From Amoebophrya sp. A120 (taxonomy: Eukaryota; Protista; Dinoflagellata), in NCBI GenBank assembly GCA_905178155.1, contig CAJINV010000001.1, positions 14,095,265 to 14,159,264 of the forward strand: DNA of 64,000 nt. Reading direction: 5' to 3'. Positions 288 to 20,260 of the stretch are shown one piece after another. A program made the position numbers and the translations under genes. Under the pieces are notes generated by a model. The model was not told the origin of the DNA and did not search any database. It saw nothing but the letters and a program-made list of their open reading frames with translations. Each line of letters begins with the position of its first letter. The stretch's first letter is position 1.

Positions 288-1308
288 TTTTACTGAAGAT
301 AATTTGGATCTGGAGTGTCGTCGAGGTCGACGTCTGCGCCTTTTTTCCTCCTTCTACTCGAAGCAGCAATGCCTAACTGATTCTAAGACTAAAGTCTTCG
401 TCATCTGACATCGCACGCGTCCAGGTGGTTTTGTTAATTTCAGTCGGTTTTTGCTCTCGCTCTCGGTAGTTCTTCCTCTTCCAAGATGTTAACACTGCAT
501 ATGTAAAATTTGGCGCTTTGCTTCTCCACGACTTCCGCTCACATCTCCGATCGGGTTTGGCATTCACAGCTTTGGAGGCCTTCTCTTTTGGCAGAAAAAA
601 GGCAGAGAACGCGACTCGCTCGACCGAAGTGCGCGCAAATAAATTGGAAGAGAATTAACTCTAGACCGCTCGGAGTGTAATCGTGATTCAAACGGAATTC
701 AAACTGAATTCAAAAAGTTGGCATTTTCAAAAAAACGCCCCTCCGAGGGGGCGAATCGGGCGAAACAAATGCGGCGCGCGACAGCCATAGAAAACGGCCT
801 GTAGCCGCTTTCACACGAACGCTGCGCCCTGTGCTTGGTCCAGCGGACCAGGCGCGAAACGGCAACTGGATCCAACCATGCGAAGGAGCTTCCGGGAAAT
901 GGGGCGAACGCGCTTTGGTTCGACCGGCGGCCGAAGTTTGTTATCATGCCTTAACTTGCGAGACTTGAAACCCGGCTCGGCGCCAGGGGGGTGCTGCCGG
1001 TGTAATAAGAGAAGACCCTGCCCAACCACGGAAAAATGCCGGAAACCGTCGGGGGCCGGCGCATGCGGTTAGGAGCATGGCTGGCCTCGGTGTCGGGGTC
1101 GCGGCTTGGCCCGGCGAGCGCTCAAGCAAGTCAGCCTGTGCATATTGCATGTGACGCTAGTGGACAAAATGCCGCCAGGGGCGAGGCCATCCCCGGCCGC
1201 GATTCCCAATGCGGTCAGCCACCCAAGATCGCCCAGGCTGGTCTCGGTAGGTGAAGTCGACTGGAGGCACAACTCTGGTGGCCCGGACCACAAAATCCCA
1301 TCCCCCAC

Positions 1309-1417
1309 CAATTCAAAATCCATCCGAATTCTGTCAGAATCCGTCCGAATCAAGAAGCCAAGTAGGGGACAAAATTCGGACGGAATTCGGACAGAATTCG
1401 GATGAGTTTTGAATTTG
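1309..1417. repeat. Imperfect inverted repeat (~42-bp arms, ~23-bp spacer)
   Basis: CAATTCAAAATCCATCCGAATTCTGTCAGAATCCGTCCGAAT (1309-1350) is nearly the reverse complement of ATTCGGACGGAATTCGGACAGAATTCGGATGAGTTTTGAATTTG (1374-1417). Confidence 0.8.
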
Positions 1418-1600
1418 CCCCGATGGCCCCGATGGAGTTTGAATTGGGGCCGATCGTCCGGATGGGTTTTGAATTGGGGCCGGTCGTCCGGATGGAGTTT
1501 GAATTGGGGCCGGTCGTCCGGATGGAGTTTGAATTGGGGCCGGTCGATCGGATGGACTTTGAAATTGAGATCCACTCCCCGATGAACTTTAGAATTGTTG
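1401..1600. repeat. 30-bp minisatellite, ~6.5 copies (GATGGAGTTTGAATTGGGGCCGGTCGTCCG)
   Basis: Units start at 1401, 1431, 1461, 1491, 1521, 1551 and 1581. Central copies are near-identical and outer copies degenerate. Confidence 0.95.
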
Positions 1601-6281: not shown

Positions 6282-8218
6282 TCACTGCTTGTCGGTGGTT
6301 TCCTTCTTGGCCGGTGCTTTCGTCTCGACCTTCTTGGCCGGGGCTTTGGCTTCTTCCACAGCCTTCTTCGCCGGGGCTTCCGGCTCTTCACTAGCTTTTT
6401 TGGCGGCTTTGGGTTCGTCGTTGGTCTTCTTGGCACCCTTCAACACCAAGGACGGCGGGGTCAGGGCCGCGGCCTTGCCAGCGGCAGCACTTTCCGGATC
6501 CGGGTTGGTCGTGATCTGCACGGGCTCGTTGCCGCCGGTGACCGGAGCCGCACCAGGTTCCGGGATAACTGTATTGTGATGTTTTTGGGATTTAGGATAT
6601 GGATATTAAATAAAGTTCGAAAACGAAAGTGTACGAGGCCGTCTAAAGCAGAGGTGGAAAGAAACAAACTAAATTAAAATTTCTGTGTCGGCATGAAAAT
6701 AATCCTGCAGGATCTCGCTTGACTTTCTAAAAACGCAACCGTCGCGGAAACATAAACTCAAATCAAATCGAGTACCAGCTGGGTCCATCGGTGGTCCGGC
6801 TGGGGCCTTCGGGGGCGGTGGTCCGGATCCCGCGGGCGCGGCAGGCGTTGGCGTTGGTGGCGGCGGGGCGGAGCCCACGGGCTTCGGGGAGGGCGCGACC
6901 GCGTCCGTGGTGGGGTCGATCGGGGGGTTCCCGTTGGGGCAGGCGCCGGTCTTGTGTGCCACCTCGACCAGCATCTCGTGGTGCAGGTCATTCGCACGCT
7001 CGGCCGCGACTGCAAAGTTGGCGAACTTACCGCCTTCGAACTCGTCCACCTTCATACAGGGGTTCAAATCTGCGGGGACCGTGGGCGGGACCTTTCCGAC
7101 GATACCATCACCGCAGTCGACTTCCGCTCCCGGCTTGACCGACGCTGGCGGCAAGCAGGCCTCGGAACCCGGCACGATGATCGACAGCGCACCGTTGTAC
7201 AACGGATCAGAGGTAGCGTCCGGGGCACAGTCGGGCACGCGGGCACCGGCAAGGTCTTTCGCGCACCACTTGTCAGCTTCGGCCTGGTCTATGACTGGGA
7301 GAATGTTCTAAAGACGTATTCCTGGGCTTTTGTTTCATGCCAAGAGGGTAGCGCTGACGTCAGCAACAGCTGCAGTTGGTGGAGACAGATTTTTTAAAAA
7401 ATCTAAAAAACGTTTTTTCTCGCCGTCGTTCAGCACTACAAGCAAAATGGCGCGAGTACAAGGCGTATTGTGAAGTTCACAGTTTCACTTCTTTAGAATC
7501 TCTCCTGCTTAACCTCGTGGAACAACATTCGCGGGCAGCACTTCTGGCAGCTGTAGCCCGTGTTTCCGCCAGTTCCCTCCTCGAACGCGGCCTCGGTCGC
7601 CGGGGCCTCGACCGGCTCGGACACGCCCGGCAAGCAGCTGTAGTGCTGAAAGACGCCGGTTTCCGGATCGGGCATGTTGGCGCAGGCGACGCCGTAAAAC
7701 GCGGGTGGGAAAAAGCCGCACCCTCCGTCGCCCGGCATCAACTTGTCGACGCAATGCGGACCGGACGGAGCCTCGGCGGTCGCGGTCATGCTACCCGGGA
7801 TTGGCGGTGGGGCGGATCCTGGCATGTGCGGCGCCGGATTGTCGTAGCAGAACGCGTGCTTGCCGTAGAAAATGTCGTGGACCTCGTCGGGGGCCTGCTT
7901 GCTGAGGAGCCTCATCGGGTCGAACGCCTCGCAGCCGAACCCGAAGGTCCCGCGGCAGTCAATCTCCACGACATCCCAGCCTCCCTGCTTAGCGACGGTT
8001 TTTCGCTGCCTCTATTCCCTGAAAATTAACCATCCCCATCCACTTTTTGCATGACAAACACAGAATTTGCTACGTGTTTTGCATGACAAATTGGATGGGG
8101 ATGGTTAATTTTCAGGGGATAGCCTCTTTTGCTGGAAGACACTGGTCAGCCGGCCATTGGACTTCACGTGAAGTCCCGCCGCACCGGAGACTGACCCAAG
8201 AAGGGCAACACTCCGCAT
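6282..8218 (-). CDS. Putative secreted Cys/Pro-rich protein with K/E/A-rich tail (~461 aa, 4 exons: 8218-8124, 8009-7514, 7283-6776, 6568-6282)
   Basis: Splicing joins three ORF-track ORFs and a signal-like N-terminus (MRSVALLGSVSGAAGLHVK) into one frame (1386 nt). Many Cys, Pro-rich linkers, GC-rich third codon positions. Confidence 0.75.
8010..8123 (-). mobile_element. Introner-like 114-nt GC-AG intron with 31-bp terminal inverted repeats and a 6-bp flanking direct repeat
   Basis: IR 8012-8042 / 8092-8122 (1 mismatch); DR GCCTCT at 8008-8013 and 8122-8127. Removal restores the frame ...VFQQK-RQRKTVAK... Confidence 0.85.
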
Positions 8219-8678
8219 CCTCTGTGTCACCCTACAAGTCTCTTCTACGGATCAGTTTTTTGTTTGTGTCGTTTAAATTTAGATCTGGAAAAAACTTCGA
8301 TCGTCACGACACGGCTTGTAACAGAGCCACAGCACTTGCTTCACCATCTTCGAAAAGAACACAAATTCTTTTCAGTGCAATCACACAACCAAAGAAAAGG
8401 AACGACGAAAAAAAAACTGCTTCATCTGACTGCCCTTTGAAATTCAAGATCTTTAATTTGTGTAGCTCCACCGCCATGCTGATCCTGTTCGTGCAGTCGG
8501 AAACAACGACAGGAAAACAGAAAAGGCAAAAAGAGTTACTGATCTACTCGCCAGTTTAGAAGGGTGTACTTGGCACTTATTTCACCACCACCATGAGCAC
8601 GCAACCGGCGCTGTCAATCTTTATTTCTGAAGGCATTGCAATACTGCTGCCTGCTGCACTCTCCCCGAGGACCTAAAA

Positions 8679-10438
8679 TCACGTCCACAGACCAGAGGCG
8701 TCCCCACCCAGCTCTAGTGCCAGTTCCTGCATGCGGCGGTACAGTGCGGTCGCCGTCTTGTGTGATAAGCAGGGAACCCGCAAAACCTCAAGGGCCTGCT
8801 GCACATATTGCGACTTTCTCATGCCATTCAGAACCACACCGTTATTGGAAGAAGACGCGGCAACCAGCAGCGCTTGCTGCTGTAATTTGAGCGCCTGGAC
8901 GGTTTTATTTTCACCAGTGAGCTGCTCTCGAAAAATCTGTGCGAAGAGCCTCTGCATCGGCATCTGCTTCTCGACAAACTCAGCCGAGGAATCTGCGTGG
9001 GCCCAATCGTGGGCGCGAATTGTCATCCCAGGTGGCGCAATTGCGGACAGTGGCCGGTTGACAAGGCAGCACAGGTTATTCCGCTCGATAACGGCGAGAT
9101 CGGGCTCCCCGTCGAAACCTGGAACGACGTTCGGGCGGCCCAGTCTGATCCCGGGCTCCAGGGGGTTCAGCGGGGCCTGGATACCGACGAAGCCAGTGCC
9201 TTGAAATAACCTTTGGTCCTCCGCGTTCATTTCCGCAGCTGCACTATGACCAGCTGATGTATCAGCGCCACCGGCAGCGGACCGCGCATCCCCTCTCCGT
9301 GCGAGCGCGTCGATGGCGCAACCTAGCACGGATTGCAAGCTCAGGGCCTCGAATGCATTTTTTCTTCCCGTGACGGAATGGTAGCAGCTGAGAAAGTTTC
9401 CAGACACACCGTAACCGGTGATTCGCTTGCTTTTTCGCAGTGCTTCCAACGTCGCAAACGCGACCTCGAGTCGTTTGTACAGCTCCGCCCAGGCAGCCTG
9501 CAACGGCTCGCCCCGGTTCAGCGCGTCGGAGAGGTAAAATTCGGGGTTGTGAAGAAAAACAAAATCCGGGGTAGTTTGCAGCCGCGAACAGGATGCGTCA
9601 AACTCCTCGAGGAGAAAGTCCGGCTCGAGGCAGTGCCACGTCCTTTCCAAGGGTTTCACGTCGTTCGCGCGTCGCTTTTCCATACCGGTCAAATCGCCGC
9701 TGGAGCCGTTTTTCTCTTCGGGAGTCGAACCACCAGATGTGGTGGAAGGTAGTGGCTCTGAACTCGTTTCAGTTGCGGGTTTCAGTTGATTTTGTGTGCG
9801 GCTTGTATCGTCCACTGCCGATTTTCGCTGCCCTGCACCGCCCGCGGATTTCTGGCGTACGACGTTTTTGTAACGGAGGGATTTCTCGTATTCGTCCGCC
9901 GCTATCCCGTAGTTTTCCACAACTTCAGCTGGCACAGTGATATGGCCAACTTTTGTCACGACGACGCACTCCTTGCGTTTCGCCTCCCCCCGGGCCCTCA
10001 GGCAAGCGCCAATCATCTCTTCCGATTCCCCGGGATACCTGTAATGTAGAAGGGATCGTCTTCGATCGTCCTCTTCCTGCAACGTCACTTCGTTTCTTCA
10101 GGAACCTTTTTGCTAACACCAGGAGCAGTCGGGGCCACGGTTCCAAGCAATCCTTTCTCAGTGTCGCATCACGACTACACCAAATAAGAAATACTGTATC
10201 TTTTAACAAGGCAAAAATACTTTTGACCATAGTGGGTGCTCGTTTCCAACAGATTGACCGCACCGGAGTCTACTGCCGCTTCCAACGCTTCGAAGCACCG
10301 CGACGACCCGATTCTGTACGCCCCGAAACCTATGCTGCTGCAAGTGAAGCGACCGACCCGCCGCACGTGCGTTGGATGCACCTTGCCCGCAGCCACAGCC
10401 TGGCGCAGCAGCTCGCGAGTTGCTTGTGCAGACGCCAT
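8679..10438 (-). CDS. Aldo/keto reductase family protein (exons 10438-10221, 10038-8679)
   Basis: SIGFGAYRIG, NLLETSTHYG..GESEEMIG, VVVTKVG, DFVFLHNPE, ITGYGVS, IQAPLNPLE, VVLNGMR; GT-AG intron 10220-10039. Confidence 0.85.
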
Positions 10439-17373: not shown

Positions 17374-20260
17374 TAGGCCAGACCCGGCAGGCCCTTTTCG
17401 GTAGGTCGGTAGGTAGTTAAGTAGGGCGATGCTGTGAACTAGATAGCATTGGCGTTAGCTACCTCGTATGACGAGCGGAGTCGGATATAGAAAGCAAGCT
17501 AATTCCCGGGACAGTTTTCTTCGTAAAGATGCGTTGTGGAGGTGTTCAGCCGACTCCGTTGGTTTTGTGCATGTTGACGCGCATGAGACAAGTACGCTTC
17601 ATGACAACTACACACCTCTTCTTGTTTTGCCACGAAAATAGGGGGGCCTCCCGCACTTCTACCGTGGTTCGAAATACACACGCGGGTATCTTGTCCGGAG
17701 ATAACTGCTCCGAGGACGGAGCGCGTGTGGGCCGCTGTGCGCAGCACATGCGTTCGGGCCTGGGGAGTCACACTCTGGCGGGCTTCCATTACCATTTCCA
17801 ATGCGTGTGCCGCGTGAATGACTGACAAAACGAAAACCGCAGGCAAGTATGTGTCGCAAAGACAGAGGCTGTAGCGCGTGCCCCGCGCGTGAGATGCTTG
17901 CTCCACTTGTCACACAAAAATAAACGCACTAGACAAGACCACGCGCCATGCTGGGGCGCGGCTCAACGCGTTGCGAGCAGGCGCGCGAGGAAAGCCACGC
18001 CAAGGCGTGGCCCTTCCGAAACCTGAAATAGCTGCAGCCAGCGCATAGACACGCGGCGGAGAGCCACGCTGCTTCGACGATGCCGGGGCTGGTAGGTCGG
18101 TAGGCCGGCCCCGGCAACGATGATTGACGCTCCGCCAGGCCTTGGTCTGCTGCGAGATCTGGGGCGCAGCTGTCTACCTACCTACTGAGAAACCGAAAAA
18201 GTGCCGCCCACACATTTGCAACCGACGCAGAAGGCCATGCCCAGTCGTGTCCGCCGCTTCTTTCTGCTGCGCGCGCCAGGGGCGGGGGCCGAAGGCCGGC
18301 CCTCGGCCGCGGAAGCCCCGCCAATCACCTATTTTGCAGAAGCTTGGGCCCCCGCCGGCCAGATAGAAAGCCCACAGCCACGGTGGCTAGCTTGGGCGCC
18401 TGTGCAAAAGCTGGGGCGCAAACCCCCGGACGCGTTCTGTCTACATTCATACCTCGGCGCCGGAGGTGCGGACGTTTTTCGAAGCATCGAACCCGGGGGC
18501 CCCAGCCTTTGCGAGCTTTCTACGCACTTTGGTAGGGAGCTGGCTCGGTAGAAGCCTTGGGCAGTGCGGGTCGCCTAGAGCCCTCCTGCAAAACTTGGAC
18601 GCCCCGGCCTTTGCGAGATTTCTGTTGCCGCTGCATGCTCTCGGCAGCGGGGAATGAAGCTGGCCCGCAAAAGCTGGGGGCCCCAAAGTCCGCGCGCTTT
18701 CGATTTCGGCAAGTTTTGGTCTGCCTCATATGAGCTAGCTGCTAGGCCGGGGGGGCGGCCTGGTTTTAAGTTGAGCCACCTGCGCTCGGCTCGATGGCTG
18801 TGCGTGGGCCCTCTGTGCCGGCGATTGGGGTAGGTGAGTTGGGCCTGTATTCTAGAGCGCTGGCCCACGCCCCCCGCCGGCTAGTGCGGTAGCTCGGGCA
18901 GAGGGAGAGGGCGCACCCGCGCCAGACCCAGGCCCATTGCGCCGCGCCGGCAGGCGCAGCAGTAGGTAGGCCGGGCAGGTGATGCTAATGCAACACCTGC
19001 CCTGTTCGCCGGGCAGGTGTAACACTTGCCCGGACCGGAAGGATCAGGGCAGTGTGGTGGCGCGGATCAGCCGCGCCACCACACAACCGACAGCAATAGG
19101 TGGACCGGGGGGCCCGCCTAGCCCTGATTTGCGCAGGCGGCCGGCACACCTTAGAAGGCAGGCCGGGCAACCCAACAATGACTCCCGCCGGCCCACCGCC
19201 ATCTTGGTAGGTAGGTCGGGCACTTGGCCTAGCTGGCACCGGTCGGGGCCAGCTACGGGCCGTCGGAGCCAGGCCCGGAAGGCCGGGCTTTTCTGATCGC
19301 CGCCAGCGACGCACAACCCAGACCCGCCGTCTGGTAGGTAGATCGGGTAGGGCGCGGCCGCGGAACTCGGAGCGCCGCCAGCTACACCAGCCAGAGGGCG
19401 GGGGTAGGTAGGTCGGGCGCGTTGCAGTTCCCCGGCCCAAGCCACTTGCAGTCTGCGGCACATGGTAGGTAGGTCGGGTAGATGGGTCGGGGACAGAGGT
19501 CAAAAGGCAACCGGGTGGAGTAGGTAGGTAGGGGAGGTAGGAAATTTCTGGCCGGCGCGCTTCTGTTGGGCGCCTCTAGCTGGCATCAGCCCGCCCTACC
19601 TACTGCACGGCGTTGCCTGCATGTAGTTGGCGCAAGTCGGAAGCGAAGCCTCGACCCTGCCGGCCTACATGCACATAAGTAGGTAGGTCGAGTAGATCCG
19701 GGAATGTTGCCTAGCGGCAGCTACGGGCCGCGCTCCATAGTAGGTAGGTCGGGCGGGTCGGGGATCTCTTATCTGCGCGGCCCGCATACACAACGACTAC
19801 TAGTCGCTGGTAGTAGGTAGGTAGGGCAGACCGGAGATCATCTCTGACCCACCCGCGCGAGCTAGCGGCGCCGGGCGGACGTAGGTAGGTAGGGCACGTC
19901 GGGAATTGTTGAAAGGCGCCTGCTAAGAGATAGGGCGAGTCGTAGGTAGGTAGATTGGCGCCCTGTGATCCGCACCAGCTACGGAGGCTAGTCACTAGTA
20001 GGTAGGTAGGGCGGCCCGAGACCTATGCTCTGTGGCAGCTCGGCCGATAGTAGTAGGTAGGTCGGGTACCTCGCCCCGCGCTGGGACGTGCATGACTGTG
20101 GCCAACCCGATAAAGGTAGGTAGGTAGGAGGGTAAAACCACGGGAGGAAAGACACTACGACCGCGCTCGAGGTAGCTAACGCCAATGCTATCTAGTTCAC
20201 AGCATCGCCCTACTTAACTACCTACCGACCTACCGAAAAGGGCCTGCCGGGTCTGGCCTA
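17374..20260. mobile_element. Non-autonomous DNA transposon-like element, ~2.9 kb, perfect 93-bp TIRs (the outer TA is the probable target-site duplication)
   Basis: 17374-17466 is the exact reverse complement of 20168-20260 (TAGGCCAGACCCGG...GTTAGCTACCTCG). GC-rich interior; no transposase ORF seen. Confidence 0.92.
19207..20128 (+). repeat. Regularly interspaced GTAGGTAGG(T[C/A]GGG) motif array inside the TIR element
   Basis: Copies at ~19207, 19334, 19404, 19465, 19520, 19595 (inverted), 19679, 19740, 19813, 19881, 19942, 19998, 20053 and 20116, separated by non-identical spacers. Confidence 0.9.

What the first reader, a model, noticed from the sequence alone, without database searches (positions are those of the whole stretch)
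8008..8127. Young introner: a miniature transposon-like insert that is precisely spliceable
Seen: a 114-nt insert with 31-bp TIRs (1 mismatch), a 6-bp direct repeat (AGAGGC on the sense strand), two internal copies of quasi-palindromic TTTTGCATGACAAA, and in-frame stops. Both splice sites come from the duplicated target (AG|GC...AG|GC), giving a GC-AG intron whose removal restores the ORF exactly. Established: IR/DR-bearing introner elements are described in Amoebophrya, as I recall with shorter IRs and DRs than these. Inference: a recently mobilised family that makes introns by duplicating an AGGC site.
Basis: partly seen in the sequence, partly recalled or inferred. Interest (0 to 1): 0.75.

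Follow-up and report, generated by a model that had tools for sequence, protein, structure and literature searches.

The report
Known Amoebophrya introner, GC-AG by chance
A 109-base hairpin-ended mobile element sits inside a gene of the marine parasite Amoebophrya A120 and is missing, to the base, from transcript assemblies of one likely-RNA sample; it is one copy of an already published intron class, and its ordinary-looking GC-AG ends are likely a coincidence, because sister copies lack them.

Summary
Real, spliced, already published. The host ORF is 100% identical to a protein NCBI names Amoebophrya sp. A120. Contigs of 2 likely-RNA runs (one sample) skip exactly 114 nt; the DNA-like run keeps the insert and holds hundreds of related records. 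The boundaries need correcting: the element is TAT…ATA, 109 bp (8013-8121), with a 5-bp target duplication (GAGGC). The sixth repeated base is chance. Four sister copies have four other duplications, and none offers GT/GC-AG ends on either strand. So 'makes introns by duplicating AGGC' is not supported. The junction can slide over 7 positions, so GC-AG is not shown. A second intron of the same gene is cut TT…CC, ignoring an in-frame GT-AG pair, one base before a TA and four after a TA. That register would make this intron CT…GG (one weak data point). TAT ends, 5-bp repeats and ~30-bp inverted repeats are in print for A120 (PMC7789003; PMC12130899 supplement). This scan noted the same class and the same -1/+4 cut on many other windows of this genome (unreviewed notes).

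The parts
8013..8121 (-). Element proper, 109 bp, TAT...ATA ends, no coding capacity; two in-frame stops in the host frame
   Evidence: Ends shared by 5 of 5 aligned copies while flanks differ; loose ends of DNA-run contigs pile at 8012/8013 and 8121/8122; stops
8013..8042 (.). Left TIR, 30 bp, one mismatch to the right TIR
8092..8121 (.). Right TIR, 30 bp
8008..8012 (.). 5-bp target-site duplication, downstream copy on the sense strand (sense GAGGC)
8122..8126 (.). 5-bp target-site duplication, upstream copy on the sense strand (sense GAGGC)
8045..8058 (+). Sub-terminal quasi-palindromic motif, copy 1 (core GCATGAC); function untested
   Evidence: core seen 25 times in 2,345 nt of elements vs 17 in 73,389 nt outside
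8077..8090 (+). Sub-terminal motif, copy 2, same orientation; predicted to pair with copy 1 and lengthen the RNA stem
8009..8122 (-). Intron 1 as predicted by the -1/+4 register (CT...GG, 114 nt); the GC-AG alternative is 8123-8010; both give the same mRNA
   Evidence: 114-nt skip shown with 6 nt of slide; register inferred
8123..8218 (-). Host gene exon 1 from the ATG; N-terminus looks like a signal peptide (by eye, not tested)
   Evidence: X3 and X4 contigs cover it
7513..8008 (-). Host gene exon 2, cysteine-rich, no Pfam match
7286..7512 (-). Intron 2: 227 nt, non-canonical TT...CC, junction cannot slide; likely a decayed TA...TA hairpin element (core 7511-7290) with diverged 5-nt flanks
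   Evidence: both = 0; X3 and X4; weak hairpin, z = -1.24
6776..7285 (-). Host gene exon 3
6569..6775 (-). Intron 3: canonical GT-AG, 207 nt
   Evidence: skipped in X3, X4 and X9 contigs
6282..6568 (-). Host gene exon 4 to the stop; Pro/Lys/Ala-rich tail

Best explanation
This is one copy of the published Amoebophrya A120 introner class: a 109-bp TAT...ATA element with a 5-bp target duplication, likely a non-autonomous DNA transposon, that is missing together with one duplication from likely-RNA contigs and is likely cut out at positions set by its own ends rather than by GC-AG. Shown: anatomy, many related sequences, varied 5-bp duplications, exact 114-nt skip. Inferred, mobility: a transposase or integrase supplied in trans binds the TIRs and makes a 5-bp staggered cut at nearly any sequence. 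Inferred, splicing: the TIRs fold into a long stem that brings the two ends together, and a relaxed spliceosome cuts one base before the opening TA and four bases after the closing TA. That removes element plus 5 nt whatever the target sequence. Here the intron would be CT...GG (8122-8009), and the GC-AG reading one base away would be a chance match.
For: Host protein 100% identical over 97% of the query to an NCBI A120 protein; that gene model has the same junction. X3 and X4 contigs skip 8008-8121 exactly, with 255 and 123 nt on the shorter side; X1 contigs run into the element from both flanks with 0 differences and show no such joint. The TIR start fits the published A120 motif TAT + 7 nt + AAA. 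Family copies picked by TIR sequence alone: 4 of 5 have an exact 5-bp duplication, 1 of 5 has 4/5, all different. 0 of 4 sister copies offer GT/GC-AG. Removing element + 5 nt lengthens the longest frame from 362 to 563 aa (L001), 280 to 515 (L003) and 402 to 759 (L004). Intron 2 of the same transcript is TT...CC, fits only the 4+1 split of its diverged flanks (1 of 6 splits), and passes over an in-frame GT...AG pair (7513-7284, read by hand); the A25 orthologue aligns there without a gap. Farhat et al. found 83 of 89 spliceosomal proteins and U2, U4, U5, U6 but no U1 snRNA in A120; GC-AG is 1% of A120 introns.
Against: The junction evidence is one sample (X3 = X4), its RNA status is the tool's guess, and it may be the data behind the gene model, so the two are not independent. 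The register at this site cannot be read from mRNA (7 equivalent positions). The -1/+4 register rests here on one intron whose identity as a decayed element is weak (hairpin z = -1.24; its TIR score of 22 lies in a range where shuffled windows give 236-250 hits at 18 or more). No sister copy lacking GC-AG was shown spliced in its own strain: at L004 the strain sequenced in X2/X3 appears not to carry the insert. In L002 precise removal gained little (166 to 193 aa). Published donor counts (T second in 6,681 of 9,716 introns of fam2) fit the register, but are mirrored by A at -2 in 6,598 of 9,716 and are confounded by aligner placement. No transposase was found, and Farhat et al. reported none in A120. 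Nothing here tests which machine cuts.
Confidence: 0.65

Rival explanations
1. One reading: an ordinary spliceosome uses GC-AG, both sites taken from a duplicated AGGC target, and the family makes introns by choosing such sites.
For: A GC-AG register exists and gives the right mRNA. Introners that take both sites from the insertion site are described in other species (Florenciella, PMC9860276 passage). GC-AG introns make up 1% of A120 introns.
Against: 5 of 5 duplications differ and 0 of 4 sister copies offer GT/GC-AG. 2 of 13 TAT...ATA elements offer one, against 5.7% per site by chance. The acceptor would be GAG directly behind an unused TAG. The neighbouring intron ignores an in-frame GT-AG pair. 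As a family rule it fails; for this single copy it remains possible.
Confidence: 0.1
2. Same element and same precise removal, but by a non-spliceosomal route: an endonuclease and ligase, or a domesticated transposase-like protein, that reads the base of the RNA hairpin.
For: No dinucleotide rule among sister copies; very stable stem; U1 snRNA not detected, and the authors suggest a distinct mechanism; Euglena non-conventional introns are cut at fixed spacers from paired motifs by unknown factors.
Against: Intron 2 is removed exactly although its stem is weak. One element (L002:87-351) reads GT-AG in the same -1/+4 register, as expected if the register derives from spliceosomal geometry. The spliceosome is nearly complete and handles GT-AG intron 3 of the same gene.
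Confidence: 0.2
3. The skip is not splicing: the contigs come from an allele or DNA molecule lacking the element.
For: X3 and X4 are only guessed to be RNA; insertions of this family differ between strains.
Against: One X3 contig lacks all three introns, the GT-AG one included, with 0 differences in the exons; the DNA-like run X1 shows no joint across the element.
Confidence: 0.04

Closest known systems
Introner elements (IEs) of Amoebophrya sp. A120 (Farhat et al. 2021, PMC7789003; seen: abstract, passages, sections 10, 11, 12, 16, supplement passages and part 3 of 5; figures not seen)
   Same: Same organism by protein identity; IR starting TAT + 7 nt + AAA; direct repeat at the boundaries (3-5 nt in the text, 5 bp in the legend of Fig. 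S19); hairpin; repeated family; no transposase; precise removal.
   Different: The TIR here is 30 bp against the 8-20-nt IR motifs in their text. They call splice sites variable relative to the hairpin; I infer a fixed -1/+4 register. The GCATGAC motif was not in the parts I read. I could not assign this copy to one of their 1,954 families (no sequences seen).
A120 TIR-DNA introner families of Gozashti et al. 2025 (PMC12130899; seen: passages, all 58 A120 rows of supplementary file 8)
   Same: TIRs of about 25-100 bp are common; fam38 is annotated '5-bp TSD, TA/TA Termini'; fam14 and fam56 include elements of about 105-108 bp; splice dinucleotides vary within each large family.
   Different: The table holds no sequences, and the TIR 15-mers were not found in the 12 of 14 files searched, so the family number is unknown. 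fam38 is about 810 bp with Copia/Gypsy-like ORFs; this copy has none.
MITE-type introners that co-opt splice sites from the TSD (Symbiodinium microadriaticum, Florenciella; PMC9860276, passages)
   Same: TIR plus TSD; removal of element plus one TSD restores the mRNA.
   Different: Those families keep GY-AG sites, carried or co-opted; this family's copies mostly have none.
Euglena non-conventional introns (PMC12501133, passages)
   Same: Paired ends, direct repeats that make junctions slidable, proposed MITE origin, cuts at fixed distances from paired terminal motifs.
   Different: Unrelated lineage; CAG/CTG motif with 3-nt and 5-6-nt spacers, tested genetically; here TA...TA with an inferred 1 and 4. 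It works like them in logic; it is not a member.

Membership tests
Amoebophrya A120 introner elements (Farhat 2021) | Lies in the A120 genome | tested here: met
   Exon 2 product 100% identical to an NCBI protein named Amoebophrya sp. A120
Amoebophrya A120 introner elements (Farhat 2021) | Inverted repeat joining the intron ends, starting TAT + 7 nt + at least 3 A | tested here: met
   Both ends fit; 29 of 30 positions pair
Amoebophrya A120 introner elements (Farhat 2021) | 3-5-nt direct repeat overlapping the exon/intron boundaries | tested here: met
   5-bp duplication in 4 of 5 copies, 4/5 in the fifth
Amoebophrya A120 introner elements (Farhat 2021) | Repeated in the genome | tested here: met
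   707 records of run X1 laid on the stretch at 80% or more; 45 and 51 loose ends with differing flanks at the two termini (table cut); 4 copies in another assembly
Amoebophrya A120 introner elements (Farhat 2021) | Removed from RNA | tested here: met
   114-nt skip in contigs of 2 of 2 likely-RNA runs covering the site, one sample; X9 does not cover it
Amoebophrya A120 introner elements (Farhat 2021) | Splice sites other than GT-AG | tested here: met
   None of the 7 registers is GT-AG; which one is used is open
GC-AG introner co-opting both sites from its TSD | Family copies share AG|GY in the duplicated target | tested here: not met
   1 of 5 copies
GC-AG introner co-opting both sites from its TSD | GC-AG is the register used at this copy | not testable with these tools
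   Junction slides over 6 nt; needs lariat or intron-end reads
MITE (non-autonomous TIR DNA transposon) | TIRs, fixed-length TSD of varied sequence, short, non-coding, many copies | tested here: met
MITE (non-autonomous TIR DNA transposon) | Empty orthologous site with one copy of the target | tested here: inconclusive
For the window's own site only the divergent A25 protein was seen.
MITE (non-autonomous TIR DNA transposon) | Autonomous partner with the same ends and a transposase | not testable with these tools
   No genome held; none among the 5 copies seen or in viral contigs
Ginger / integrase-type DNA transposon | Integrase-like ORF and Ginger termini | tested here: inconclusive
   No ORF in 109 bp; shares only the 5-bp TSD and TA/TA ends with fam38, which its authors file as Ginger in the table but say lacks Ginger termini in the text

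The most novel reading that the evidence does not exclude
A120 introners follow a hidden positional splice code: the cut falls one base before the opening TA and four bases after the closing TA, whatever the boundary letters, even where GT-AG or GC-AG lies one to three bases away. That lets a 5-bp-TSD transposon land anywhere in coding DNA without harm. This gene is a good test locus: intron 2 skips an in-frame GT-AG pair, and intron 1 offers GC-AG one base from the predicted CT-GG cut. The GCATGAC motif shared by families with different TIRs would be the binding site of the common transposase or of a splicing helper.
Probability: 0.65. Interest if true: 0.6.

Novelty: already known. Interest (0 to 1): 0.2.

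Why it matters
As an element it is ordinary for this genome: one of about 29,850 published A120 introners. What remains open in print is how they are spliced without U1 snRNA and without fixed end dinucleotides. If the fixed -1/+4 register holds, it supplies the missing rule and explains tolerance of insertion anywhere in genes. This copy adds a locus where the ordinary reading (GC-AG) and the positional rule (CT-GG) predict different intron ends. It also warns that slidable junctions make such introns look canonical by chance about 1 time in 18.

Tried and rejected
Genome-wide copy count and search for an autonomous partner: no genome held. TIR 19-mer in viral contigs: 0 matches. Other boundary parses allowed by the window alone (111 bp with 3-bp TSD; 105 or 103 bp with 2-bp TSD; 108 bp with 6-bp repeat) were rejected because all 5 copies share TAT/ATA ends with a 5-bp repeat and DNA loose ends pile at 8012/8013 and 8121/8122. 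Scans for further elements in the window found no other TAT...ATA copy; the looser scan for decayed ones did not rise above shuffles. An orthologue for the L003 exon, meant to tell which copy of a mismatched duplication stays in the exon: no hit among 1,175 candidates, so untested. L004 as a test of splicing without GC-AG failed because the runs come from a strain that differs by about 4% in exons and appears to lack that insert. X11 (raw RNA reads, same species label) covers none of the L004 exons and X5 did not cover them either; neither was laid on the window, so no raw-read support for the junction. X9 and X10 hold under 10% of the words; X9 shows only the GT-AG junction. Published donor-dinucleotide counts were not accepted as proof of the register (aligner bias). 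The 13-element set was selected for a 5-bp repeat with at most one mismatch, so it cannot test TSD length; only the 5 TIR-selected copies do. No Pfam family for host exons 2 and 3. Look-up of earlier findings by sequence gave nothing.

Full report
Observation. The features are there. Arms 8012-8042 and 8092-8122 pair at 30 of 31 positions, a 6-nt repeat flanks the insert, the 14-mer occurs at 8045-8058 and 8077-8090, and the insert carries two in-frame stops. The sense strand folds at -63.8 kcal/mol, z = -10.3, with 0 of 200 shuffles as stable. It is the strongest inverted repeat listed in the 64 kb and the only copy of its TIR there.

Organism and gene. All long ORFs of the window lie on the minus strand. 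The exon after the insert (7493-8011) is 100% identical over 97% of its length to a 462-aa protein that NCBI names Amoebophrya sp. A120, and 60% identical to an A25 protein; these were the only 2 hits among 423 candidates. The A120 model reads straight through the site as the 114-nt removal predicts. Pfam has no match for exons 2 and 3.

Is it spliced? Four runs were laid on 6400-8900. Contigs of X3 and X4 join 8007 to 8122, a 114-nt skip with 6 nt of slide, with 255 and 123 nt on the shorter side, so they include the upstream exon and its ATG. One X3 contig also lacks the two other introns and has 0 differences in the exons. X3 and X4 are one sample, and their RNA status is the tool's guess; they may also underlie the gene model. 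X1 behaves as DNA: contigs enter the element from both flanks with 0 differences and no joint crosses it. X9, on record as RNA, does not cover the site. No raw reads were laid on this junction.

Is it a family? In X1, 707 records were laid at 80% likeness or more. Summed depth is 31,306 and 25,621 in the two element bins against 40-43 in the flanks; the tool warns that this is no copy number. Loose ends with unrelated flanks pile at 8012/8013 (17 + 28) and 8121/8122 (34 + 17); the table was cut. A 22-nt TIR pattern found 4 loci in another public assembly, judged a related strain because L004 exons differ by about 4% from X2/X3. One copy (L001) differs from the window's at 1 of 109 positions, so mobility is recent (inference).

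True anatomy. All 5 copies begin TAT and end ATA, and their flanks share nothing. 4 of 5 have an exact 5-bp duplication and 1 has 4/5: sense GAGGC, GAGCA, CTCGA, AACAG/TACAG, GACGA. The element is thus 8013-8121 with a 5-bp TSD; the sixth repeated base is its own terminal base matching the exon. A scan that required a 5-bp repeat found 13 TAT...ATA elements in the window and L001-L004, 10 with an exact repeat, from several families with different TIRs; 12 of 13 carry GCATGAC, at 25 per 2,345 nt inside against 17 per 73,389 nt outside (some of the outside hits lie in elements the scan missed).

The GC-AG claim. The window's junction has 7 equivalent registers, one of them GC-AG and none GT-AG. 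0 of 4 sister copies offer GT/GC-AG on either strand. Over all 13 elements 2 do, on the inferred sense strand; 5.7% of window positions would by chance. Yet removing element + 5 nt lengthens the longest open frame in L001 (362 to 563 aa), L003 (280 to 515) and L004 (402 to 759); L002 gained little (166 to 193). These genes carry 2-4 such inserts each, so they are most likely spliced (inference; not shown in their own strain). At L004 the family copy appears absent from the X2/X3 strain: an X3 contig joins 1411 to 1527, and an X2 contig seems to do so too (inferred from tables 3 and 8). That points to an empty site, but it does not show splicing.

Register. Intron 2 of the host gene (7286-7512) is skipped with no slide and has TT...CC ends. 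Its ends align as a decayed inverted repeat around TA...TA (7511-7290), with flanks GAGGT and GACCA. Of 6 ways to split the flanks only 4 + 1 gives the observed junction. A GT...AG pair at 7513-7284 would also be in frame but is not what the contigs show (read by hand), and the A25 protein aligns there without a gap. Applied to intron 1 this register gives CT...GG (8122-8009), one base from GC-AG. Against this: it is one intron, its hairpin is weak (z = -1.24, 27 of 200 shuffles as stable) and its TIR score is within the noise of the scan. Published donor counts fit (fam2: T second in 6,681 of 9,716, GC in 560; all 9 predominant A120 pairs in Table S4 have T second), but A at -2 is equally common (6,598 of 9,716), so strand and aligner effects may explain them. 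I wrote this idea down before opening earlier findings. Several unreviewed notes on other windows of this genome report the same -1/+4 cut; I count them as leads, not support.

Mechanism. Mobility, inferred: a non-autonomous TIR element moved in trans by a DDE transposase or integrase making a 5-bp stagger. No partner was found; Farhat et al. report no transposase in A120, while Gozashti et al. list an A120 family with 5-bp TSD, TA/TA ends and integrase-like ORFs. Splicing, inferred: the stem joins the ends and a relaxed spliceosome cuts at fixed distances from them. A120 has 83 of 89 spliceosomal proteins and U2, U4, U5 and U6, but U1 snRNA was not detected. An endonuclease-ligase route is the main rival (0.2); GC-AG use at this copy is 0.1.

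What is known. PMC7789003 (abstract, passages, sections 10, 11, 12, 16, supplement passages and part 3 of 5) describes A120 introners with IRs starting TAT + 7 nt + AAA, 3-5-nt direct repeats, 29,850 copies in 1,954 families, and calls the splice position variable. PMC12130899 (passages; 12 of 14 supplementary files searched; all 58 A120 rows of file 8) lists TIRs near 30 bp in many families. PMC9860276 (passages), PMC12501133 (passages) and PMC12005148 (passages: other Amoebophrya strains splice GT-AG) give context. Four library searches listed no paper on the A120 cut position by title or abstract start; I did not read the other listed papers, the figures, or Roy et al. 2023 (seen only as a reference), so I cannot say the register or the motif is unpublished.

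Verdict. Observation confirmed; interpretation partly supported. It is a member of a published class in a published genome, so: already known, interest 0.2. The positional splice code is the reading worth pursuing (probability 0.65, interest 0.6 if true), and this gene offers a locus that tells it apart from GC-AG.

Noticed in passing
window 7286-7512 (-): Non-canonical TT...CC intron of the same gene, RNA-supported and non-slidable; an in-frame GT...AG pair 1 and 2 nt further out is not used.
   Followed up: yes
window 8030 and 8104 (loose ends): 37 and 32 DNA-run contigs share the inner part of the TIR region but continue with a different outer end that also closes in ...GGATA: a sister family with swapped outer TIRs, suggesting modular elements.
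   Followed up: no
L001-L004, all TAT...ATA elements; window 8045-8090: GCATGAC motif in 12 of 13 elements across families with different TIRs; strongly enriched over flanks.
   Followed up: partly
L002:87-351: TAT...ATA element whose duplication GCAGG gives a canonical GT-AG intron exactly in the -1/+4 register, the T coming from the element.
   Followed up: partly
L003:1497-1639: Family copy with a 28-nt tandem duplication of most of its right TIR and one mismatch in the duplication; it lies with three other elements upstream of a CobW-like GTPase region (motif recognised from memory).
   Followed up: partly
window 1308-1563: 5.5 copies of a 30-nt unit facing one inverted copy at about 1308-1340, a hairpin-like repeat array; not a TAT...ATA element.
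   Followed up: no
window about 17400-20250: Low-complexity region rich in GTAG/CTAC runs with many short inverted repeats and no long ORF.
   Followed up: no
window 8244-8246: An X4 contig ends at 8244, right after a sense-strand TAG 26 nt before the ATG, a possible spliced-leader acceptor; an X3 contig instead runs on into the upstream gene. Contigs cannot show starts, so this is only a hint.
   Followed up: no
whole window: Only one young TAT...ATA element in 64 kb, against 2-4 per 3 kb in L001-L004 (which were selected for holding one); the window is unusually poor in introners. Genes are co-oriented on the minus strand (iGluR-like, aldo-keto reductase, ALG10, MsrA, GcvT, GlcNAc 2-epimerase, calpain).
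   Followed up: no
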